A stretch of DNA of 14,159 nucleotides from Eubacteriales bacterium (GCA_031554055.1 JAVBKL010000002.1:1-14159), one strand, 5' to 3'; positions 3,821-14,092 are shown, counted from the stretch's first letter. Notes: generated from the letters alone by a model not told the origin. Made by a program: numbers and translations.

Positions 3821-4288
3821 CTACGCCTTGAAACTCTTTTGGGTGTCCTCGGCAATGTATTCTTGCAACTCGCCACGCCCATAAGTTAAGCCGGCATAAA
3901 TGGTTTGGGATTTCTCCATAAGTGGTGTTGGGTTCTCTTCGTTTTTAGCCACTTCTTGCCAACCCTCGAGCAATGGCGTTAAAATCTTTTTCACATCAGA
4001 AAGCCCCTCGGTTCTGCCGGAGACTTTCGCCTGAATCAAAAGTTTGTTTACATAAATATAAAGTGGGAAGAGCGTGCGGCTTAGTTCGTATTTCATATCA
4101 AGAGAATCGATTAAAGTGCCGAGCAAATCAACAGCAACGCCCAGCGGTTTAGCAAATTCGGCTTGGTTCCCCTGTGCGGCAACAGCGTCGTCTACATTCT
4201 TAAAAATTAATTCGTAAGTGATGGCAATTAGATTTACTTTGCTCGCACTCGAAATACGAGCTACAAAGTCTGCATTTGTAAGTTTCAT
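3821..4288 (-). CDS. fliS: Flagellar export chaperone FliS
   Basis: 155 aa. The FliS pattern ...SLD..YELS..L..LY.Y....L.QA.........L..LLEGW... aligns with Bacillus FliS. RBS GGAGG precedes the start. It is located in a flagellin locus. Confidence 0.7.
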   Translation of the reverse strand: MKLTNADFVARISSASKVNLIAITYELIFKNVDDAVAAQGNQAEFAKPLGVAVDLLGTLIDSLDMKYELSRTLFPLYIYVNKLLIQAKVSGRTEGLSDVKKILTPLLEGWQEVAKNEENPTPLMEKSQTIYAGLTYGRGELQEYIAEDTQKSFKA

Positions 4289-4412: not shown

Positions 4413-7400
4413 TTATATCGTGGCTTCATATTCAGACGCTTGGTACGGCGTATAATCTACTTGGTTTTTGACGGTTTCTGGCAAGTCGTTTACAAGAGCT
4501 TTCTCTGTGAAAACGATGGAGTCTGCGTGAAACCCAGATTCACGGATATAGGCAACGAGGCTTGCTTCGTTATCCTTTAATAACTTGGACGCACCCACTT
4601 TGTCGGTGCTGATTTCAAGCTGAACAGCGTCTTTGTCTCGTTTTAAGAAAACAGAAACGTTTCCAATTGTGTCTGTGTTGAGCGACATAATCAAATCAGA
4701 AGTTTGCTTTTTGGATACGTTTTCATCAACGATGTACATATTTAAGTTTGCAATTTTGTCGGTCAGCTTAATGGGGATTTGCAAACGGTTGTTCTCTTCG
4801 TGTTGTTCAAAGTGCCGTCCCACTTGGACTGAATTTTGAACCAGCTCAAGTTCTTCAAGCAAGCTCCTAGACGTAACGTTCTGCTTTAAGTCTTCAAGCT
4901 GTGCAGAAACAGAGTCCAAAATATCGATGGTGCTGTTGCCCAATTTTAATTCAGCAAGATCCGCACTTGGTAGCTCCAACTCAAACTCGTCGTCTTCGTG
5001 TTTTAAATCTCGCTCAAGTTTATCAAGAGATTTCCCCATCGTAAAAGAGTCTTTAAGAAGCATTTGCATGGCTTGAATATTGGAAAGTGTTGTGGGCATT
5101 TGTCCACGCTGCATAAAATTGATGATGGTTGGCGGCGTGTTTAACGTATCCGTAATTTTCTTAAACGCCTGTTCCAATCTCTCATCGGAAATGGACTCTT
5201 TGTGGTCGAGGTTGGCAAGTTCAAGCTGTTCTGCCGCTTCTTCAATCAAAAGCTCTTTGGCAGGACGTTCGTTATTTGTTTTGGTCTTAAACAATTCAGT
5301 TACGGCATGGGGTGTTGCTTCTGCCGCCATTTTCTCAATAACGAGTGAATTGTATTCAAACTCGGACAATTTCTTAGCAGGGAAACTCTCTATTCGGCTT
5401 CTGATGTTTGAATCAAACGGACGCTCCAAAGCACCAAAGTTATCATCGACCGAAATATTATAATCGGCTTTGCCATGCTTGGATTTTTGATAAAACTTGG
5501 CGTCGTTCATTAAATCGCCAAGCTTGAGGTTTGAACCGTACTTTAAACTGATTCCGAGCGAAACGTTGTTGTCCTTTTGGATAATGTTCAGCATTCTGTA
5601 AAAATCTATCATGGACTCACGCTCGTCTTTCGTGAGGGTCTTTGTATCATCTAAATTTTTTATGCACTCATAAATATTATCAGACACGGACACGCCATGT
5701 TTTTCGTCCCATTCATAAATATAATTCAGAACATCGTCCACTTTCATTTCACGAGGGTTAAGCCCTTCTTTAATCATTTGTGCCGCAATATTTGGGTGTA
5801 GCTTATTTTGAATGGAGGACATTTTTGAATCAAGAATTTTAATTTCTGTTAAGTTTGCATCGGTCACGTCCAGATTGCTCTTTGATAAAATGGATGCGGC
5901 TTTTACATTTTCAGAAGTAGGGGTGATGCCCATATCTTCCAGAAATTTCGAAAACTGTGCTTCGACCTTCTTAAAGGAATCGCCGTGCTTAGGGTTTGCC
6001 ACGGTTTCAAACCGCTCATAGTCTTTGAGCAAACGGTTGGAGCGAACATTATCAGCAATGGCCCTTACCGTAAACGGAACAGCCTTGCTTAACAACTGGG
6101 CAAACAAATTGTTTTGTTGTGTCTGTGAATCTTTTAAATCTTTATATAAATTGTTTATTTTCGCTATGTTTTCGGGGCTGTCATCGGCGTTCATGGCACG
6201 AAGACTCGACGAATAATCTGCGTTTTGCTCAAGGCTTTCGAGTTTTGCAATGGCTTGTGCAAGAGGCAGGTTTAAGATGTTATCTTTTTTGGAGGACATT
6301 CTTTGCGCGGCTTCATACGTGAGCTTTAACTGAATGTCAACGAGCTGCTTTTTTGCAATGGCAACTTCTTCGGTTTTGGTGGTATCAACCGCTATTTTTT
6401 CAGATACCACAAGTTTCTCTTTAAGCGATTGTGTTAAATTCTCAATGGTCGGCTTCTGGTTCTTATTTAAAATAAATTCAATATGTGATGCTGTAATAAA
6501 TGGAATGTCTTTGATTGCGTTTTCATACTGAATCGGTAGGCTCTTTGTGTCTACAGGCACATTTGAAACGCTTTTATCAAATTTTATATTTTGTGCCGCA
6601 CCCCTTAAAATATCTTGTACATTCAAATGCGACTTTAAATTTCTTAGAAAAATAACTTTTTCCACATTGGGTTGTGTAACAGGGGTTTCGTTCTCTATTA
6701 AAAGTTTTGCCGCACTAACGGTTTCATCGGTCTTTTCGATTCCCTCACGGTCAAAAACTTTGTTGATTTCTGGGTCAAGTGCCTTCCAAGTTTCTGGGGG
6801 AAGCTTTTCCTTTGCTTGAAAACTAGAGGATGTATGTTTGGCTAAATATATATTTTCAACAGTCAGAGATTTCTCTTCTTTAACAAGTTGTGCAATCGTT
6901 TCGTCGTCTGGGCTCTGGATTTCCTTGAGCTTGAACACGACGGTGTCGAGGGACTTAATGTTTTTATCTGTCGGTGGCAACCCCTCGCTCGACAAAGCTT
7001 TTACGATTGCTTTGTTCTTGCTTGTGTTTTTTACAGGTAAGTTGTTCTCTTCGAGATATTGGTTTATCATTTTATCGAGCTCGTCTGGCGAAACTTGTGA
7101 GGTTGGCTTTGACTGTATTTCTTTCATAACGGAGTTTAAAACGCTTAGGCTTATTTTTTCAAGGGTAACACCGCTCGCCAAAAGCTCTTTTAAGGCACTT
7201 CGGCTCATGTTGTTGCTTACATAACGAACTTGCCGTTTGATTTTTGAGATGGCTTCCATTTCTTTCATTTTAAGGTCTTTGTCTTGTGCCTTTGGGTCGT
7301 CTTCGGTGATTAAATTATTCTTTTTAAACATTTCTTTTAAGTCGACGTTGGAACGTTTTTTCTCAATTGCCTTGGCAATGTCTGTGCTTTCACGAGTAAT

Positions 7401-7679
7401 TTGTTTCAGTTCGATTCCGTCGCCTGTTTTTTTAACCACTTGAAATTGCAGTTCTTCGCCGACTTGACCAGTTATTTTGTCATTGTCTGCTTCAAACTGG
7501 TAATTGTCTTTTGTGGCTAGCATCGTTTTGGTATCAGTTTTTTTAGTGACGGTTGCAGAAATTATTTGCCCAAGTTCAAGAGCGATCTTGTTTTTTTCTT
7601 TGTCCTGAACTTTTTTTGGTGCAATTGAGCTGGGTAATTGCGAATTGTTAATTTGAAAAGAACTGTTCAATTGCAGCAC
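4413..7679 (-). CDS. Large Lys/Glu-rich protein with a FliK-like (Flg_hook) C-terminal domain
   Basis: 1088 aa with a GTG start and an SD aagga. The C-terminal about 100 aa (LQIPIKLTDKIANLNMYIVDENVSKKQTSDLIMSLNTDTIGNVSVFLKRDKDAVQLEISTDKVGASKLLKDNEASLVAYIRESGFHADSIVF) fits the hook-length-control C-terminal motif L.P..LG.V.V...........A..L......L...G. The rest is low-complexity and extended. Confidence 0.45.
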   Translation of the reverse strand: MLQLNSSFQINNSQLPSSIAPKKVQDKEKNKIALELGQIISATVTKKTDTKTMLATKDNYQFEADNDKITGQVGEELQFQVVKKTGDGIELKQITRESTDIAKAIEKKRSNVDLKEMFKKNNLITEDDPKAQDKDLKMKEMEAISKIKRQVRYVSNNMSRSALKELLASGVTLEKISLSVLNSVMKEIQSKPTSQVSPDELDKMINQYLEENNLPVKNTSKNKAIVKALSSEGLPPTDKNIKSLDTVVFKLKEIQSPDDETIAQLVKEEKSLTVENIYLAKHTSSSFQAKEKLPPETWKALDPEINKVFDREGIEKTDETVSAAKLLIENETPVTQPNVEKVIFLRNLKSHLNVQDILRGAAQNIKFDKSVSNVPVDTKSLPIQYENAIKDIPFITASHIEFILNKNQKPTIENLTQSLKEKLVVSEKIAVDTTKTEEVAIAKKQLVDIQLKLTYEAAQRMSSKKDNILNLPLAQAIAKLESLEQNADYSSSLRAMNADDSPENIAKINNLYKDLKDSQTQQNNLFAQLLSKAVPFTVRAIADNVRSNRLLKDYERFETVANPKHGDSFKKVEAQFSKFLEDMGITPTSENVKAASILSKSNLDVTDANLTEIKILDSKMSSIQNKLHPNIAAQMIKEGLNPREMKVDDVLNYIYEWDEKHGVSVSDNIYECIKNLDDTKTLTKDERESMIDFYRMLNIIQKDNNVSLGISLKYGSNLKLGDLMNDAKFYQKSKHGKADYNISVDDNFGALERPFDSNIRSRIESFPAKKLSEFEYNSLVIEKMAAEATPHAVTELFKTKTNNERPAKELLIEEAAEQLELANLDHKESISDERLEQAFKKITDTLNTPPTIINFMQRGQMPTTLSNIQAMQMLLKDSFTMGKSLDKLERDLKHEDDEFELELPSADLAELKLGNSTIDILDSVSAQLEDLKQNVTSRSLLEELELVQNSVQVGRHFEQHEENNRLQIPIKLTDKIANLNMYIVDENVSKKQTSDLIMSLNTDTIGNVSVFLKRDKDAVQLEISTDKVGASKLLKDNEASLVAYIRESGFHADSIVFTEKALVNDLPETVKNQVDYTPYQASEYEATI

Positions 7680-7774: not shown

Positions 7775-8617
7775 TTATTGCAACAATTGAATTATGTTCT
7801 GAGGTGTTTGGTTTGCTTGGGCCATAATGGAAGTTGCTGTTTGTGTTAACACAGACAACCTTGAATACTCCGCCATTTCTCCTGCCATGTCCGTGTCAAA
7901 AATTCTTGACAAGGATTCAGAAGTTGAGGTCGAGGCTTGGGCTAAGTTATTTACGGTATGCTCCAAGCGGTTTTGATACGCACCGATTCTTGCACGGTAC
8001 TCGGATAACCTAGTAAGTGCTTCGTCTGCGGCAACAAGAGCCGTCTGGGGGTTTGTCACTACGTTAAGAGGGTTTGCCGAACTTTCATCCGTGTTTAATT
8101 TTAAAAGCTCACTGGATATTTTAGGCAAATTTACTTTTAGGCTAAGCCCTTTGTTTGAGCCAACGTGAAAAACAAGTTGCAAATCGCTGTTTTCTTCGTA
8201 GCCGCCGTCAAGAAGCTTAATTTTGTTAAAGTCAGATTTTCCAACCATTTCGTCAATCTCTTTGGATAACTGATCCACTTCAATTTGAATCGTTTCACGG
8301 TCTTCTGTTGTGTTCGTGTCGTTGGCCGCTTGGATACTTAACTCACGAACTCGTTGGACAATGTTTTGAATTTCGTTCAAACCACCGTCGGCAGTTTGAA
8401 GCACAGAGATTCCGTTAGATGCGTTTTGTCCCGCTTTGTCGATGCCTTGGGTTTGCATACGCAATGAGTTTGCGATTGCCAAGTTGGCAGCATTATCAGA
8501 AGCAGATTTTATTTTCACACCACTCGAAATGCGAGCAGAAGTTTTCACCATGCTGTTGTCGCTACGAGCGAGTGCATTATACGCATTTAATGAAGAACCG
8601 TTGTAGCTGATTTTCAT
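7775..8617 (-). CDS. fliC: Flagellin (D0-D1 only, 280 aa)
   Basis: Conserved flagellin N-domain (GISVLQTADGGLNEIQNIVQRVRELSIQAANDTNT...) and C-domain (RARIGAYQNRLEHTVNNL...AQANQTPQNIIQLLQ). RBS AAGGAG is 7 nt before the ATG. Confidence 0.9.
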   Translation of the reverse strand: MKISYNGSSLNAYNALARSDNSMVKTSARISSGVKIKSASDNAANLAIANSLRMQTQGIDKAGQNASNGISVLQTADGGLNEIQNIVQRVRELSIQAANDTNTTEDRETIQIEVDQLSKEIDEMVGKSDFNKIKLLDGGYEENSDLQLVFHVGSNKGLSLKVNLPKISSELLKLNTDESSANPLNVVTNPQTALVAADEALTRLSEYRARIGAYQNRLEHTVNNLAQASTSTSESLSRIFDTDMAGEMAEYSRLSVLTQTATSIMAQANQTPQNIIQLLQ

Positions 8618-10280: not shown

Positions 10281-10348
10281 GTAGGTAAACCCCCTTTAAA
10301 AATTCTTCTAGTTAAACATAGCACCAATTGCATTTCAGTTCAATAGTA

Positions 10349-10457
10349 GACTTGTTCGATAACCGCTAGTATTTCAACTTTTATGGGGCGAAAATATCAG
10401 GCTTCAATGATTTTTCGTCACAAAACAGTTAGAAATTCTTAGGTTATCGAACAAGTC
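10349..10457. repeat. Perfect 16-bp inverted repeat (gacttgttcgataacc / ggttatcgaacaagtc) with a 77-nt spacer
   Basis: Read directly from the sequence. The arms are at 10349-10364 and 10442-10457. It sits in the sdaAB 5' region, which is also upstream of the Met-rich peptide gene. Confidence 0.6.
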
Positions 10458-10585
10458 GAGTAGTTAAAAATTTGTCGGGCTTTGTGTTTTTAGTATTGCC
10501 AAAAAAAATGTTTTTCTGGGACAGACAACAAAATTAAATTTGAGAGTACACTATACCATAACTATTTTTTGGGAGGTTTTCTTCT

Positions 10586-10750
10586 ATGAATAATGTTGGA
10601 GCAGGTTGTGGACCACAAGGCGGAAACAGCGATATGCTAATGCTTTTCTTCATGCTAATGATTATGTGCCCCGGAATGTTTGGCGGTATGGGCGATAATC
10701 CAATGATGATGTTAATGCTGATCATGATGATGAGTGGCGGACGGTTCTAG
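10586..10750 (+). CDS. 54-aa Met-rich hydrophobic micro-protein (MNNVGAGCGPQGGNSDMLMLFFMLMIMCPGMFGGMGDNPMMMLMLIMMMSGGRF)
   Basis: Strong RBS GGGAGG lies 9 nt before the ATG, and a terminator hairpin follows the stop. There is an internal tandem repeat: MLMLFFMLMIM and MMMLMLIMMM. The C-terminal 15 codons are duplicated at 14005-14049 with synonymous-only changes. It is below the ORF-track length cutoff. Confidence 0.6.
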   Translation: MNNVGAGCGPQGGNSDMLMLFFMLMIMCPGMFGGMGDNPMMMLMLIMMMSGGRF

Positions 10751-10766
10751 GGGAATATTTAGAAAT

Positions 10767-10808
10767 GAAAAAAGCTCGCAAGCTCGTGTAACTTGCGGGC
10801 TTTCTTCT
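10767..10808. terminator. Bidirectional terminator between the peptide gene (+) and the hydrolase gene (-)
   Basis: gaaaaaa, then agctcgcaag / ctcgtgtaa / cttgcgggct, then tttcttct. It runs into TTTTTT on the minus strand, so it is strongest for the hydrolase gene. Confidence 0.6.
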
Positions 10809-10850
10809 ATTCTGTACGACTGACATGCCAATAACCTCAGGTGAGATGAA

Positions 10851-12656
10851 TCATGGCTGGATCCAAGCCACTATATCTCCCAAAACAGTGCTATCTACAT
10901 GACTTGCGCTCTTATATTCTTCAGCAGTACCTGTTGTGGACAGCATAAACAAATGATTTAAGTCTGCGTATAGCTTAAATGCTACATTCGTTTTCCCGCT
11001 TAACAATGTTTGATATTCTTTATAATCCTTGTCGGGATAAACTTGAAAATCTTTGCCGCCTTGTAGTATCAGCACTGGTTTTTGAATGGCTTTTAAATAT
11101 GAAAAGGCAGGATGAGCCTCCATTTCTTTATAATAATAGCCAGAAGCTCCGACCAAAGTAATTTTCTTTGCATCCGCATCGGACATATCTTTTAAAGCTT
11201 CAAAGGTCGCAACCAATGCATCAACTTGACTTTGCCCTTTGATTTTAGTATCGCCCGTAAGCGTGTTTACGATAGCCATATATTGGTCACATATAACATC
11301 CGAAAGAGTGCGGGGTGTGCCTGCCATCATAATAATTCCTGCAAAGTTTCCGCCTTCCGCATCTATCCTTGGGGCAAGCATTCCACCTAAACTATGCCCA
11401 ATTATAAAAACCTTGTTTTTATCCATTCTTGCATCTGCTTTTAATATATTTGCTGCGAGTATTGCATCATCAATTGTTTCTTCTTCTACGGTAAACGCTG
11501 CAATATTTTGCGCAATTTGTTTTTGGTACACGTAAGTGCGCTTGTCATAACGCAAGACTGCAATTCCGTTTTCTGCAAGGTAATCAGCCATATCCTTAAA
11601 AGGTTTATTATTGTAAATCGTTTCATCTCTGTCGTTGGGACCAGAGCCGTGAACCAGAACAACAGAGGCCAAGGGCTTCTTTACATCTTTGGGTAATGTT
11701 AATGTGCCACTCAATTCATAATCTGTCCCCTTGCCGATTGTAATATTTTCTTCAATAATGCCAATATTTGATGGTATCATTTCTTTATAAACTCCCCCTC
11801 CTGCATGTTGCAAATTCACAATATAGACTGAGTGATTGGCCATGTCCACCAATATGGGATTCATCGACTTAAAGAAAGCATAACGCCCAACCTGACCGAT
11901 ATAGGTCGTGTCGTCAATACTTGATGAGGTATATGCTTCATTGTTTCCCTCAGGCTGGAGGAGCTTCACATCCTTGTGTAATTGGTCTTTTAGCCAATTT
12001 GTCACCTGTTCCTGCGTTTGTCCAGCATGATTTATGATGGCAGGGTCATCCACCCATACGACAGCGTGATAGGCCAACAAATCTCTGCTTGGATAGTTTT
12101 CCTCTTGAAACGCAGGTACATAACCCACGGTTTTACCCATCGATTCAGAGACAAACCTCAAAGGCACGTAGGTACGATTGTCATGGATGAAAGGAGGGGT
12201 TGATAACGTCTGGGGCGTGCCATTGACTATGGCACGGGCGTTGCCGATAGACATTGTAATTTTCATATCTGTTCCGCTAATTGTTACTTGATTCGTTTTA
12301 TTGTTCCACGCCACATTTGCGCCAAAAGATTCTGCTGTTACTCTTAATGGCACAAAAGAAGAATCGCCTTTTACAATCGCTTTGTAGGGCACGAATCGCC
12401 CATTTATCATTAGGAGACAATCATTTGGGTTCATATCAATACTACCATTTATAAAGGTATATGTGTAATCGTCTGTCATACCCTCGTCGGCTATTATGGA
12501 TTTACAAACGTATTCAGGCGTACTAGTAGAGTTAAGTGAGGTTTGTATGGTAGATTGTGTATTGGAAGAAATGTTATTAGCTATTTTAATGGTATTAAAA
12601 GTGAATGATAAAGCTAAACCCATTGCAACCATCTGGTAAATTTTTTTCATATTCAA
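10851..12656 (-). CDS. Secreted alpha/beta-hydrolase (GHSLGG nucleophile elbow) with N-terminal copper-amine-oxidase-N-terminal-like domain repeats
   Basis: Signal peptide MNMKKIYQMVAMGLALSFTF. Two segments with the Cu_amine_oxidN1-like motif (FVPLRVTAESFGANVAW; RTYVPLRFVSESMGKTVGY). C-terminal serine-hydrolase fold with GHSLGG. RBS AGGAGG is 8 nt before the ATG and abuts the stop of the upstream gene. Confidence 0.75.
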   Translation of the reverse strand: MNMKKIYQMVAMGLALSFTFNTIKIANNISSNTQSTIQTSLNSTSTPEYVCKSIIADEGMTDDYTYTFINGSIDMNPNDCLLMINGRFVPYKAIVKGDSSFVPLRVTAESFGANVAWNNKTNQVTISGTDMKITMSIGNARAIVNGTPQTLSTPPFIHDNRTYVPLRFVSESMGKTVGYVPAFQEENYPSRDLLAYHAVVWVDDPAIINHAGQTQEQVTNWLKDQLHKDVKLLQPEGNNEAYTSSSIDDTTYIGQVGRYAFFKSMNPILVDMANHSVYIVNLQHAGGGVYKEMIPSNIGIIEENITIGKGTDYELSGTLTLPKDVKKPLASVVLVHGSGPNDRDETIYNNKPFKDMADYLAENGIAVLRYDKRTYVYQKQIAQNIAAFTVEEETIDDAILAANILKADARMDKNKVFIIGHSLGGMLAPRIDAEGGNFAGIIMMAGTPRTLSDVICDQYMAIVNTLTGDTKIKGQSQVDALVATFEALKDMSDADAKKITLVGASGYYYKEMEAHPAFSYLKAIQKPVLILQGGKDFQVYPDKDYKEYQTLLSGKTNVAFKLYADLNHLFMLSTTGTAEEYKSASHVDSTVLGDIVAWIQP

Positions 12657-12662
12657 TTCCTC

Positions 12663-13475
12663 CTAAATATTATTTTTTAGTCTTTCGATTATATTTTGAA
12701 AACGACGCTCATTGGCAAGGGCGGAAAAGGCTGGATTATTTACTATTACATCAGCCATGCTTTGCTTTATTGTTTTTTCGTCACGCGGCAATGCTGTCCC
12801 TAATGGAAATTCCTCTAGCCAGTCATCCAGTAAATTGAAAAACCCATCCCCTTTTAACTGTAATGGGTATATATCACCTGTGACAATCTCTGTATATTTT
12901 TCCAATGTGCCAAGGCTTTTATCCATTTTTTCATTAATCAGGTATACTTGTGCGGCAGATAGATAGAAGTTCAATACAATAGACGGATGAAGGCTGTTTA
13001 TATCAAAGGTTTCCACTATGTTCATTGTTCGTCGATATACTTCCTCAAACCGTTTCGTATCGTCAGCGCATAACGCAAGATAAGAGGGGAATATCCCAAA
13101 CAGGGACATAATATGTTGGTATATGCCGACTTGTAGTATGGCCTTCGCTTCTTTCATTTTACCGACCATCTGGTAAGCCTGAGCAAGCAATGTTTCTGTG
13201 GAAACCACTGGTGCATTTGTTTCCCCAAGAAGTTCCAATACTTCATTCGCGTTACCAAGAGTGAGTGCACAAAGCGCTTCCTGCGATAATGCCTGTTTCG
13301 TCAATTCCACATCATCGCTTTCTTTTTTGACTCTAATGAAAAGCTCTCTTGCCTCCGAGATGATGGAGGTCATTTTATCAGTATCTTTACAAACTGCGCA
13401 GTAGTTAAAAAATAGCGCACCTATTTGAAATAGCAGCGGAAAACATGAAAAGTATTTCTTACGATTTCGCGGCAA
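12663..13475 (-). CDS. Helical-repeat (TPR/RNPP-like) domain protein, likely the C-terminal part of a split XRE-family regulator
   Basis: The track ORF has a TTG start. The first 34 codons look like out-of-frame translation, and plausible protein begins at MTSIISEAREL (ATG 13373, poor SD). It overlaps the upstream HTH ORF by 55 nt. Its stop is 6 nt before the hydrolase ATG, with the hydrolase RBS overlapping it. Confidence 0.5.
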   Translation of the reverse strand: MPRNRKKYFSCFPLLFQIGALFFNYCAVCKDTDKMTSIISEARELFIRVKKESDDVELTKQALSQEALCALTLGNANEVLELLGETNAPVVSTETLLAQAYQMVGKMKEAKAILQVGIYQHIMSLFGIFPSYLALCADDTKRFEEVYRRTMNIVETFDINSLHPSIVLNFYLSAAQVYLINEKMDKSLGTLEKYTEIVTGDIYPLQLKGDGFFNLLDDWLEEFPLGTALPRDEKTIKQSMADVIVNNPAFSALANERRFQNIIERLKNNI

Positions 13476-13768
13476 TGGTCCATAACTTCGTTAAACGGCT
13501 TGGTCGCAAAATCAGCCGATAATGATAGGTATAATTTACGAATATCCTCTTTAGTCATTTGCGGTTCATAACCCATCAAATCATCAATGCTAATATTAAA
13601 GTATGTTGCAAGTTGTGGAAGAAAAGTAATATCAGGATAGCTCTGCCCTGTTTCCCATTTTGAAATGGATGCTTTAGAAACGCCGATATAGGTTGCAAGG
13701 TCATCTTGTGTAATGTTTTTTTCTTTTCGCTTATGCACAATTACTTTTGCAATGTTTATTTCTTTCAT
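13421..13768 (-). CDS. XRE-family HTH DNA-binding protein (N-terminal part of a possible RNPP/Rgg-like regulator)
   Basis: Cro/C1 HTH (ITQDDLATYIGVSKASISKWETGQSYP). RBS GAGGTG is 6 nt before ATG 13768. The track's GTG at 13777 is less likely. The C-terminal 15-20 aa (RNTFHVFRCYFK) look like frame-shifted junk. Confidence 0.65.
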   Translation of the reverse strand: MKEINIAKVIVHKRKEKNITQDDLATYIGVSKASISKWETGQSYPDITFLPQLATYFNISIDDLMGYEPQMTKEDIRKLYLSLSADFATKPFNEVMDHCREIVRNTFHVFRCYFK

Positions 13769-13822
13769 ACGCCTCACCTCTGTTTAGAGTATACAAGTAA
13801 GCAGCTATTTACTCAATGGATT

Positions 13823-13856
13823 TGTGGTTGATTTTAGTTGAAAAAATCAACCCACA
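13823..13856. promoter_or_regulatory. Imperfect 13/14-bp palindrome (tgtggttgatttt agttga aaaatcaacccaca), candidate operator
   Basis: Read directly from the sequence. It lies about 55-85 bp upstream of the XRE regulator start. There is no adjacent T-tract on either strand, so it is unlikely to be a terminator. Confidence 0.35.
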
Positions 13857-14004
13857 GGCAACCAAATAAAAAAAGAAGTAATCTAATGGGAATGAGGATG
13901 ATTAATCTATTGAAATAGTGCGGAGCTTTTGTGACGAATTTTGGATTTTAAGAATAGCCTGTCGTAAAATGTAAATGTATTTAGTCTTTGCTTGACACTA
14001 GCAG

Positions 14005-14049
14005 ATGATGCTCATGCTGATTATGATGATGAGCGGCGGACGGTTCTAG
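14005..14049 (+). CDS. 14-aa Met-rich mini-ORF MMLMLIMMMSGGRF, a paralogous copy of the C-terminus of the 54-aa peptide
   Basis: The ORF has a stop and is followed 15 nt later by a GNRA-loop terminator. It is 88 percent identical to 10703-10753 over about 50 nt, with synonymous-only differences inside the ORF. No SD is recognisable, so translation is uncertain. Confidence 0.3.
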   Translation: MMLMLIMMMSGGRF

Positions 14050-14064
14050 GGAAAACCAAATTTT

Positions 14065-14092
14065 GGCGAGGGCGAAAGCTCTCGTCATTTTT
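14065..14092 (+). terminator. Rho-independent terminator with GAAA tetraloop
   Basis: ggcgagggc / gaaa / gctctcgtc, a 9-bp stem with two G-U pairs, followed by atttttg. Confidence 0.5.

What the first reader, a model, noticed from the sequence alone, without database searches (positions are those of the whole stretch)
10703..14052. About 50-bp direct repeats (peptide-gene 3' ends) bracket a 3.3-kb regulator plus secreted-hydrolase module
The two homologous blocks are in direct orientation on the plus strand. They flank exactly the minus-strand operon [XRE-HTH][helical domain][secreted alpha/beta-hydrolase] and its terminator. Direct repeats consisting of the 3' end of a small gene are what is left when an element integrates into or duplicates across that gene, similar to att sites at the 3' ends of tRNA or small genes. 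They are also what is expected if a peptide-gene, regulator and enzyme cassette was tandemly duplicated and partly deleted. Either way, the regulator-hydrolase unit appears to have been acquired or rearranged together with the Met-rich peptide gene. This supports a functional link such as peptide sensing, processing or export. Both peptide copies contain Pro (CPG, DNP), and the neighbour is a secreted serine hydrolase, which is speculative support for a processing role.
Basis: inference. Interest (0 to 1): 0.6.

Follow-up and report, generated by a model that had tools for sequence, protein, structure and literature searches.

The report
Cargo insertion in a tiny gene's tail
A 3.3-kb regulator-plus-esterase gene block appears to have been spliced into the last 14 codons of a tiny methionine-rich peptide gene, bringing its own replacement gene end and leaving the old end as an orphan; this is a familiar way for bacteria to pick up DNA and gives no sign that block and peptide work together.

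Summary
The repeat is real. Positions 10705-10755 and 14004-14054 match at 46 of 51 bases, and about 7e-14 such matches are expected by chance. Both copies encode MMLMLIMMMSGGRF followed by a stop. All four in-frame differences are synonymous (dS about 1.1, dN 0; p about 4-6e-4). The copies are therefore two long-diverged, translated versions of one gene tail, not a fresh duplication or a decaying scar.

- **Copy 1:** it ends an intact 54-aa gene with a strong ribosome-binding site.
- **Copy 2:** it is an orphan, with a stop codon just upstream, no ribosome-binding site and none of the gene's 5' part.
- **DNA between the copies:** it holds one frameshifted 368-aa HTH+TPR regulator (not two genes) and a secreted esterase-like hydrolase. 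This pair forms its own operon in other Firmicutes, never next to such a peptide.
- **The peptide:** it belongs to a tiny unannotated family that usually has a different conserved partner gene.
- **Independent junction:** in another lineage, two metagenome contigs are 100% identical for 1,327 nt and then diverge exactly after the same GATGATG, each with its own complete tail.

Best reading: an att-type insertion of a recombinase-less, CIME-like islet that carries a surrogate tail. No recombinase and no same-species empty site were found. The proposed peptide-sensing or peptide-processing link is not supported.

The parts
10586..10750 (+). Intact 54-aa Met-rich hydrophobic peptide gene (MNNVGAGCGPQGGNSDMLMLFFMLMIMCPGMFGGMGDNPMMMLMLIMMMSGGRF), with a GGGAGG ribosome-binding site 8 nt upstream. 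This is the target gene.
   Evidence: Family members were found. No Pfam or NCBIfam hit.
10705..10755 (+). Repeat copy 1. It is the last 14 codons plus stop of the expressed gene (proposed attL, possibly the element-borne surrogate tail). It begins with the GATGATG junction heptamer at 10705-10711.
10777..10802 (.). Bidirectional intrinsic terminator that serves the peptide gene (+) and the hydrolase (-). It is unrelated to the terminator after copy 2.
10851..12650 (-). Secreted 599-aa hydrolase: N-terminal hydrophobic signal, Cu_amine_oxidN1 'stalk' domain, and an EstD-like alpha/beta-hydrolase domain. Cargo gene 2.
   Evidence: P0122 is an identical 599-aa protein. The catalytic half is 71% identical to P0123, which closes the regulator-ABC operon in L045.
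12663..13777 (-). Single 368-aa XRE-HTH + TPR-like regulator, interrupted by a 1-nt deletion in an A-run near 13458-13462. It is either a pseudogene or a sequencing error. Cargo gene 1.
   Evidence: 100% coverage of 368-aa homologs, up to 83% identity. Fold of the homolog P0001 is nearest to ComR, PlcR, PrgX and Rgg2, weakly.
13778..13885 (-). The regulator's own upstream/promoter region, conserved at DNA level with the L045 operon.
   Evidence: blastn: window 13885-13418 matches L045 4810-5279.
13886..14003 (.). 118-nt spacer with no match to anything examined. It would be the inner arm of the right-hand junction. An in-frame TAG lies at 13999-14001.
14004..14054 (+). Repeat copy 2. It is an orphan 14-codon tail plus stop (ORF 14005-14049) with no ribosome-binding site and none of the gene's 5' part (proposed attR, the displaced native tail).
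14064..14087 (+). Intrinsic terminator that follows the orphan tail. The contig ends 72 nt later.
   Evidence: The contig length equals the window length.

Best explanation
A recombinase-less DNA segment of about 3.25 kb (10751-14003) was inserted into the 3' end of a tiny Met-rich peptide gene at or next to the heptamer GATGATG. The segment carries a self-contained regulator-esterase operon.

The incoming DNA brought its own version of the last 14 codons, so the peptide gene still reads through to an identical C-terminus. The displaced tail was left as an untranslated orphan at the far end. The two tails are therefore att-type junctions (attL and attR), and the segment resembles a CIME, a decayed island that keeps both att sites but has no integrase. 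Which tail is native and which was imported is not determined.

Shown directly:
- the repeat itself;
- identical peptide with silent-only divergence;
- the orphan status of copy 2;
- the identity of the cargo and its independence from the peptide;
- the recurrence of a junction at the same heptamer in another lineage.

Inferred: that the event was a site-specific or Campbell-type insertion, and that a recombinase acted in trans or has since been lost.
For: 1. The repeat equals the gene tail: 46/51 identity, far above chance.
2. Four of four in-frame differences are silent. dS is about 1.1 over 6.8 silent sites and dN is 0 over 35 sites, with p about 4-6e-4 under random change. This is expected if each tail evolved as coding sequence in a separate lineage (host gene versus element-borne surrogate). 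It is not expected for a new duplication or a decaying scar.
3. Copy 1 completes an ORF with a strong ribosome-binding site. Copy 2 has an in-frame stop one codon upstream, no ribosome-binding site and no similarity to the gene's 5' part.
4. Similarity stops about 5 nt after the stop codon, and each tail has its own unrelated terminator.
5. L041 and L043 are 100% identical for 1,327 nt up to ...AAC CCG ATG ATG, then unrelated. Each has a complete alternative 14-codon tail and different downstream DNA. The window's repeat starts at the same GATGATG. The chance of coincidence within a 165-nt gene is roughly 0.04.
6. L041 shares the order peptide-partner-ProRS with L022, so it looks like the unoccupied state.
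7. The cargo is an operon type found elsewhere without the peptide, including on a plasmid. Here its regulator is damaged.
8. CIMEs of 1.2-13 kb with cargo, at the 3' ends of protein genes, are documented (PMC7563491).
Against: - There is no integrase, transposase or relaxase on the 14-kb contig, and no remnant of ICE or IME genes.
- No empty site or occupied site with a recombinase was found for this species. The genome is absent from the collections searched.
- The cargo's GC content (0.38-0.42) lies within the backbone range.
- No viral contig carries the peptide gene or its tail.
- The L041/L043 junction rests on short metagenome contigs and could be an assembly chimera.
- The contig ends 105 nt after copy 2, so the native downstream cannot be seen.
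- Exact identity of 14 residues despite saturated silent sites is a little surprising for tails from separate lineages, given how variable tails are across the family.
Confidence: 0.55

Rival explanations
1. Copy 2 is the remnant of a second, once full-length paralogous peptide gene. The genome once had two peptide genes near each other. A deletion or rearrangement that brought in or lay next to the regulator-hydrolase operon removed the 5' two-thirds of the second gene.
For: Silent-only divergence with dS about 1.1 also fits two old paralogs, both under selection until a recent truncation. No recombinase is needed. Small hydrophobic peptide genes often occur in multiple copies (general knowledge).
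Against: - No locus or MAG examined has two family members. The genome and metagenome scans gave one hit per locus.
- This model does not explain why the truncation point coincides with the L041/L043 junction heptamer.
- It does not explain why the tails are identical at protein level when tails vary across the family.
Confidence: 0.25
2. The 14-codon ORF at 14005-14049 is a functional mini-gene. One possibility is an SHP- or ComS-like hydrophobic pheromone read by the divergently transcribed RRNPP-like regulator. Another is a Met-codon leader peptide.
For: - The peptide sequence is preserved (4/4 silent changes).
- It lies divergently, 227 nt from the regulator start, and has its own terminator.
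- The regulator's fold is nearest to ComR, PlcR, PrgX and Rgg2.
- A weak Thr-leader-like Rfam hit lies over the copy-1 tail plus terminator (23.5 bits, E = 0.29).
Against: - There is no ribosome-binding site and no usable promoter spacing, and an in-frame stop lies one codon upstream.
- There is no charged N-terminus as in SHP peptides.
- Four intact regulator homologs have no comparable divergent small ORF.
- The regulator is frameshifted here.
- The sequence is simply the C-terminus of a 54-aa family protein.
- The Rfam hit is far below the gathering score of 55.
- Structural matches are weak (TM 0.2-0.36).
Confidence: 0.05
3. The arrangement is an assembly artefact of a metagenome-assembled contig, a chimeric join between two strains or loci that share the peptide gene.
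For: The window is a complete 14,159-nt contig of a MAG-type assembly that ends 105 nt after copy 2. The frameshift lies in an A-run, which hints at imperfect consensus.
Against: The longest exact run shared by the copies is 17 nt, below usual assembly k-mer sizes. Both copies lie inside one contig with 3.2 kb of unique sequence between them. A chimera would not create an orphan tail preceded by unrelated DNA.
Confidence: 0.07

Closest known systems
CIMEs (cis-mobilizable elements) and related att-flanked islets at the 3' ends of protein genes such as fda, rpmG, rpsI and rplL in streptococci (PMC7563491)
   Same: Direct repeats made from the target gene's 3' end flank the element. The target gene is kept intact. 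The size is a few kb, the cargo includes a regulator and a hydrolase-type gene, and there are no integrase or transfer genes.
   Different: No cognate ICE or IME, integrase or tandem partner element is seen. There are no relics of ICE or IME modules. The repeats are only 90% identical at DNA level although 100% identical at protein level. The target is a 54-aa unannotated peptide gene, and the host is an uncultured Clostridia lineage.
SCCmec and pseudo-SCC elements at the 3' end of orfX/rlmH in staphylococci (from my own knowledge, not checked here)
   Same: Insertion is into the last codons of a gene. Direct repeats bound the cassettes. Recombinase-less cassettes exist that depend on recombinases supplied in trans.
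   Different: SCC repeats are about 15 bp and nearly identical, and the ccr serine recombinases are well defined. Nothing equivalent has been identified here.
tRNA- and tmRNA-gene integrating islands and prophages that carry a surrogate 3' end of the target gene
   Same: The logic is the same: the element supplies a replacement gene end, and the displaced end persists at the distal junction.
   Different: The target here is a protein-coding mini-gene, so the two ends can diverge at silent sites. No tRNA or tmRNA is present in the window, and there is no integrase.
RRNPP/Rgg receptors with adjacent pheromone genes (ComR/ComS, Rgg/SHP, PlcR/PapR, PrgX)
   Same: The cargo regulator has an HTH plus TPR-like architecture. 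Its nearest solved folds are these receptors. A short hydrophobic ORF lies divergently upstream.
   Different: The structural match is weak. The family's conserved neighbours are a PLDc_N mini-protein, an ABC-2 transporter or CPBP protease, and a hydrolase, not a pheromone gene. The orphan ORF lacks translation signals.

Membership tests
att-flanked integrated islet / CIME | Direct repeats at both ends derived from the 3' end of the target gene | tested here: met
   A 51-nt repeat equals the last 14 codons plus stop, 46/51 identity.
att-flanked integrated islet / CIME | The target gene stays functional through a surrogate 3' end | tested here: met
   ORF 10586-10750 is intact and full length relative to its family. 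Both tails encode the same 14 residues.
att-flanked integrated islet / CIME | No integrase, relaxase or transfer genes inside the element | tested here: met
   Only a regulator and a hydrolase lie between the repeats, and there is no recombinase anywhere on the contig.
att-flanked integrated islet / CIME | Derived by deletion from an ICE or IME (relics or related full elements) | tested here: not met
   No relic genes. The cargo matches ordinary chromosomal or plasmid operons. No phage or viral match.
att-flanked integrated islet / CIME | The same site is used by a recombinase-bearing element, or an empty site exists in relatives | tested here: inconclusive
   L041/L043 show a junction at the same GATGATG in another lineage, but no recombinase is visible. 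The source species is absent from the collections searched.
Transposon with target-site duplication, or fresh tandem duplication | Identical duplicated DNA, terminal inverted repeats, a transposase | tested here: not met
   The copies differ at 4 of about 6.8 silent sites (dS about 1.1). There are no inverted repeats at the inner ends and no transposase.
RRNPP/Rgg receptor with cognate pheromone gene | HTH + TPR receptor fold | tested here: inconclusive
   The AlphaFold model of homolog P0001 has pLDDT 87. Best PDB matches are ComR, PlcR, PrgX and Rgg2, at E about 2e-4 and TM 0.2-0.36.
RRNPP/Rgg receptor with cognate pheromone gene | An adjacent, translatable small peptide gene conserved with the receptor | tested here: not met
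   The orphan ORF has no ribosome-binding site and a stop just upstream. Homolog loci L001-3 and L045 have no comparable ORF.
Leader-peptide attenuator (Rfam Thr_leader type) | A match to a curated leader model at gathering score, and a regulated gene downstream on the same strand | tested here: not met
   23.5 bits against a gathering score of 55. The next gene after copy 1 is on the opposite strand.
Known small-protein families (Pfam / NCBIfam) | A significant profile match for the 54-aa peptide | tested here: not met
   No family in Pfam or NCBIfam. Only 9 cluster representatives were found among 1.84 billion proteins.

The most novel reading that the evidence does not exclude
The last 14 codons of this tiny Met-rich peptide gene are a dedicated, recurrently used attachment site for a so-far unseen family of integrating elements in spore-forming gut or digester Clostridia. 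Each element carries a surrogate peptide tail, so tail alleles are swapped by element traffic. In addition, the peptide and its conserved downstream partner gene form an undescribed, possibly sporulation-expressed, two-gene module.
Probability: 0.3. Interest if true: 0.5.

Novelty: new member of a known kind. Interest (0 to 1): 0.3.

Why it matters
If the reading holds, it adds a protein-coding mini-gene to the list of attachment sites used by integrating DNA in uncultured Clostridia. It also gives a clean example of a useful diagnostic: silent-only divergence between flanking repeats tells imported surrogate gene ends apart from simple duplications.

The result also removes a tempting but unsupported functional story, in which the regulator senses the peptide and the hydrolase processes it.

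As a by-product it defines two unannotated gene families: a peptide of about 55 aa built from two Met/Leu-rich segments around a CPG-x-FGGMG turn, and a partner protein of 144-188 aa. These could be followed up as a small membrane or sporulation module. None of this is surprising to a specialist in mobile elements.

Tried and rejected
- **Exact-protein look-ups** for the window's peptide, HTH fragment, hydrolase and SdaAB, meant to find the same species or an empty site: nothing on record.
- **Genome-collection scan** with a GMG[DQEH]NPMM pattern: 32 loci, of which only 3 are true family members (L016, L018, L022). The window itself was not returned, so the source genome is not among the GTDB representatives.
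- **Metagenome scan:** 8 loci, 6 of them true members, none from the same species.
- **Viral-contig scans** for the tail (two patterns) and for the peptide core: either none or only chance hits inside unrelated proteins.
- **Phage database** search for the cargo: no match.
- **Composition test** for foreign origin: uninformative.
- **Terminal inverted repeats or shared arm motifs** at the element ends: none.
- **Rfam and tRNA scans:** nothing at gathering score, and no tRNA.
- **Idea that the regulator family co-occurs with Met-rich or other divergent small ORFs:** rejected.
- **Idea that the partner gene lies elsewhere on the contig:** rejected. Whether it lies beyond the contig end cannot be tested. 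L069 shows that the partner is not universal.
Full report
**1. The observation**

The window holds one outstanding direct repeat, 10705-10755 and 14004-14054 on the + strand. It is 51 nt long, 46/51 identical, and the starts are 3299 nt apart. About 7e-14 matches of this quality are expected in the window. The 17-nt exact core GGCGGACGGTTCTAGGG occurs only at these two places and is longer than any exact repeat in 100 shuffles, where the maximum was 16.

Copy 1 is the 3' end of a 54-aa ORF at 10586-10750, which has a GGGAGG ribosome-binding site. Its product is MNNVGAGCGPQGGNSDMLMLFFMLMIMCPGMFGGMGDNPMMMLMLIMMMSGGRF. The interval between the copies contains only minus-strand genes and a bidirectional terminator.
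- The 'HTH' ORF (13421-13777) and the 'helical' ORF (12663-13475) are one gene. It is broken by a 1-nt deletion in an A-run near 13458-13462. The repaired 368-aa protein aligns end to end with 368-aa homologs at up to 83% identity.
- Copy 2 contains only the final 14 codons, so it has no CPG or DNP motif.

**2. What the repeat is made of**

In frame, both copies read MMLMLIMMMSGGRF followed by a stop. The four differences inside the frame are all synonymous: TTA/CTC, ATC/ATT and AGT/AGC. The fifth difference lies after the stop. Only 20 of the 126 possible single changes in this segment are silent. Four random changes leave the peptide unchanged with a probability of about 4-6e-4. By Nei-Gojobori counting there are 4 changes at 6.8 silent sites (dS about 1.1) and 0 at 35 replacement sites.

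The two tails are therefore not a recent duplication, because their DNA would then be identical. They are also not a scar decaying neutrally, because 84% of random hits would change the peptide. They are two versions of one coding segment that diverged while both were under selection as protein, and that now sit 3.3 kb apart.

The two copies are not equivalent.
- Copy 1 completes an ORF that has good translation signals.
- Copy 2 is preceded by an in-frame TAG one codon upstream (13999-14001). It has no ribosome-binding site, and the DNA before it shows no similarity to the gene's 5' part.

Similarity ends about 5 nt after the stop codon. Each copy is followed by its own unrelated terminator, at 10777-10802 and 14064-14087. 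There are no inverted repeats at the inner ends.

**3. The peptide family**

The peptide matches nothing in Pfam or NCBIfam. A word-indexed search of 5.8 billion proteins found one relative, P0121. An exhaustive profile search of 1.84 billion cluster representatives found nine. DNA-pattern scans added members from Defluviitaleaceae and Clostridiales MAGs and from termite-gut-type metagenomes: L016=L041, L018=L038, L022, L039, L040, L043 and the more distant L042.

All members are 51-59 aa and share one plan:
- a polar, Gly-rich N-terminus;
- N[DE/P];
- a Met/Leu-rich stretch of about 12 residues;
- CPG-x-FGG-x-G;
- [DEQ]N;
- a second Met/Leu-rich stretch;
- (S/F/L)GG(K/R)(x)F.

In L042, Leu replaces most of the Met, so hydrophobicity is the conserved property rather than methionine itself. 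Silent differences between close members such as L004 and L022 confirm that the gene is translated.

In 7 of the 9 loci with enough downstream sequence, the peptide gene is followed on the same strand by a homologous protein of 144-188 aa with no Pfam match. In L018 this partner is shortened to 77 aa. The loci are L018, L022, L039, L040, L041, L042 and L070-72, with pairwise E-values of 1e-17 to 1e-33 and HMM E-values of 1e-20 to 1e-90. The exceptions are L069, which has a convergent GH77 gene, and this window, where the partner is absent from the whole contig. None of these loci has an XRE-TPR regulator or an alpha/beta hydrolase next to the peptide gene.

**4. The cargo**

The regulator belongs to a strongly conserved family, with at least 60% identity across Clostridia, Paenibacillus and Desulfitobacterium. 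In L001-L003 it heads an operon of regulator, PLDc_N mini-protein, ABC ATPase and ABC-2 permease. In L045 the same operon ends with a 344-aa hydrolase that is 71% identical to the catalytic half of the window's hydrolase. DNA similarity to L045 starts 108 nt upstream of the regulator's start codon, at window position 13885. On a Bacillus cereus megaplasmid the layout is regulator, CPBP protease, alpha/beta hydrolase.

The regulator-hydrolase pair is therefore a self-contained operon type with variable middle genes. In the window the two genes are directly adjacent. The hydrolase has gained a signal sequence and a Cu_amine_oxidN1 stalk domain, and the regulator is frameshifted.

An AlphaFold model of the intact homolog P0001 (pLDDT 87) is closest to the RRNPP peptide receptors ComR, PlcR, PrgX and Rgg2. 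The match is weak, with E about 2e-4 and TM 0.2-0.36. The regulator may well bind a small ligand or peptide, but intact homologs have no Met-rich or other conserved divergent mini-ORF.

**5. An independent junction at the same place**

L041 (contig Ga0123353_10000269) and L043 (contig Ga0123352_10283595) are 100% identical over 1,327 nt, up to and including ...CAG AAC CCG ATG ATG. From the next base they are unrelated. L041 continues with LILMFMMMSGGKMF and a stop, then its partner gene and ProRS. L043 continues with YLMLIMMMSGGKLF and a stop, then different DNA. L022 shares the order peptide-partner-ProRS with L041, so L041 looks like the unoccupied arrangement.

The window's repeat begins at the same heptamer, GATGATG, immediately after the N-P-M codons. 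Two independent junctions falling on the same 7 nt of a 165-nt gene has a chance probability of about 0.04. The pair L039/L040 shows no such junction.

**6. Interpretation**

The most economical account is an att-type insertion. DNA carrying the regulator-esterase operon and a surrogate 14-codon tail recombined with the peptide gene at or near GATGATG. The gene was kept intact, and the displaced tail remains at the distal junction. Silent-only divergence is exactly what is expected when the host tail and the element-borne tail evolved separately as coding sequence.

The segment has no recombinase, and none is present on the contig. This resembles CIMEs, which are decayed islands of 1.2-13 kb that keep both att sites and their cargo, sit at the 3' ends of protein genes, and move only with help in trans (PMC7563491). 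Unlike typical CIMEs, the segment shows no ICE or IME relics, and no cognate integrase-bearing element was found. I therefore describe it as working like a CIME, not as a proven member of that class.

The weaknesses of this account are:
- no same-species empty site;
- uninformative base composition;
- no phage or viral link;
- the contig ends 105 nt after copy 2;
- the L041/L043 evidence rests on short metagenome contigs.

**7. Rivals**

- **(a) Copy 2 is the stump of a second full-length paralog.** This also explains the silent-only divergence and needs no recombinase. It predicts paralog pairs that were never seen, and it leaves the shared junction position unexplained. Confidence about 0.25.
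- **(b) The 14-codon ORF is a functional pheromone or leader peptide.** It lies divergently from an RRNPP-like regulator, but it has no translation signals and no counterpart next to intact homologs. The only RNA-family hit is far below threshold. Confidence about 0.05.
- **(c) Assembly artefact.** This is unlikely, because the copies share at most 17 exact bases and lie inside one contig. Confidence about 0.07.

**8. Verdict**

This is a new example of a known kind of event and is of modest interest. The by-products are an unannotated mini-protein family, its partner gene, and a possible new attachment site.

Noticed in passing
L004, L018, L039, L040, L041 and L070, 55-80 nt upstream of the peptide start codon; looser version at window ~10520-10560: There is a conserved promoter-like motif, GGCAAYATT-N12/13-CATAnAA, upstream of the peptide genes. 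From memory it resembles mother-cell sporulation (sigmaE/sigmaK-type) promoters. The L070 neighbourhood also holds SpoIID, a Spo0E-like gene and a sigma factor.
   Followed up: partly
L018, L022, L039, L040, L041, L042, L070-L072 (immediately downstream of the peptide gene): A conserved partner gene lies on the same strand. It encodes 144-188 aa (77 aa in L018), has an N-terminal hydrophobic segment and motifs such as SE.Q[IV].AF and INGII.A, and has no Pfam family. It is absent from the window and from L069.
   Followed up: partly
window 10339-10364 / 10442-10467: A 26-nt inverted repeat, 85% complementary, with a 77-nt spacer, lies between sdaAB and the peptide gene. It has no Rfam match, and its role is unknown.
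   Followed up: no
window 13458-13462: The regulator's frameshift is a 1-nt loss in an A-run (GTAAAG to GTAAG by comparison with homologs). It could be a true pseudogene or a consensus error in the assembly.
   Followed up: partly
L069 1426-1575: Downstream of the closest peptide relative there is a long hairpin built from tandem CTCTCAACTCTCCA-like units and their complement, in place of the partner gene.
   Followed up: no
L039 vs L040 (peptide gene, first hydrophobic segment): Two samples carry the same locus, nearly identical throughout, except for a short mosaic patch (ATGCTCATACTC vs ATGATGTTCCTC) and a Gly-codon indel. This suggests intragenic recombination between alleles.
   Followed up: no
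L001-L003, L045, L073 (B. cereus plasmid NZ_CP053953.1): The 368-aa HTH+TPR regulator family (at least 60% identity across Firmicutes classes) always heads an operon with a membrane component (PLDc_N plus an ABC-2 transporter, or a CPBP protease) and often an alpha/beta hydrolase. It looks like an uncharacterised, widely conserved sensing and export module.
   Followed up: partly
window 4413-7679 (minus strand): A 1088-aa protein with DUF6240 and a weak FliK (hook-length control) C-terminal match lies in a flagellar cluster with flagellin (7775-8617) and FliS (3821-4288).
   Followed up: no
L012, L014, L020, L021, L025: The scan pattern also hit a recurring conserved stretch, which translates as LSMDMAGMGENPMMRSGPYF, in Anaerolineales, Flavobacteriales and Terriglobales contigs. 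It is probably a conserved non-coding or rRNA-like element unrelated to the peptide family.
   Followed up: no
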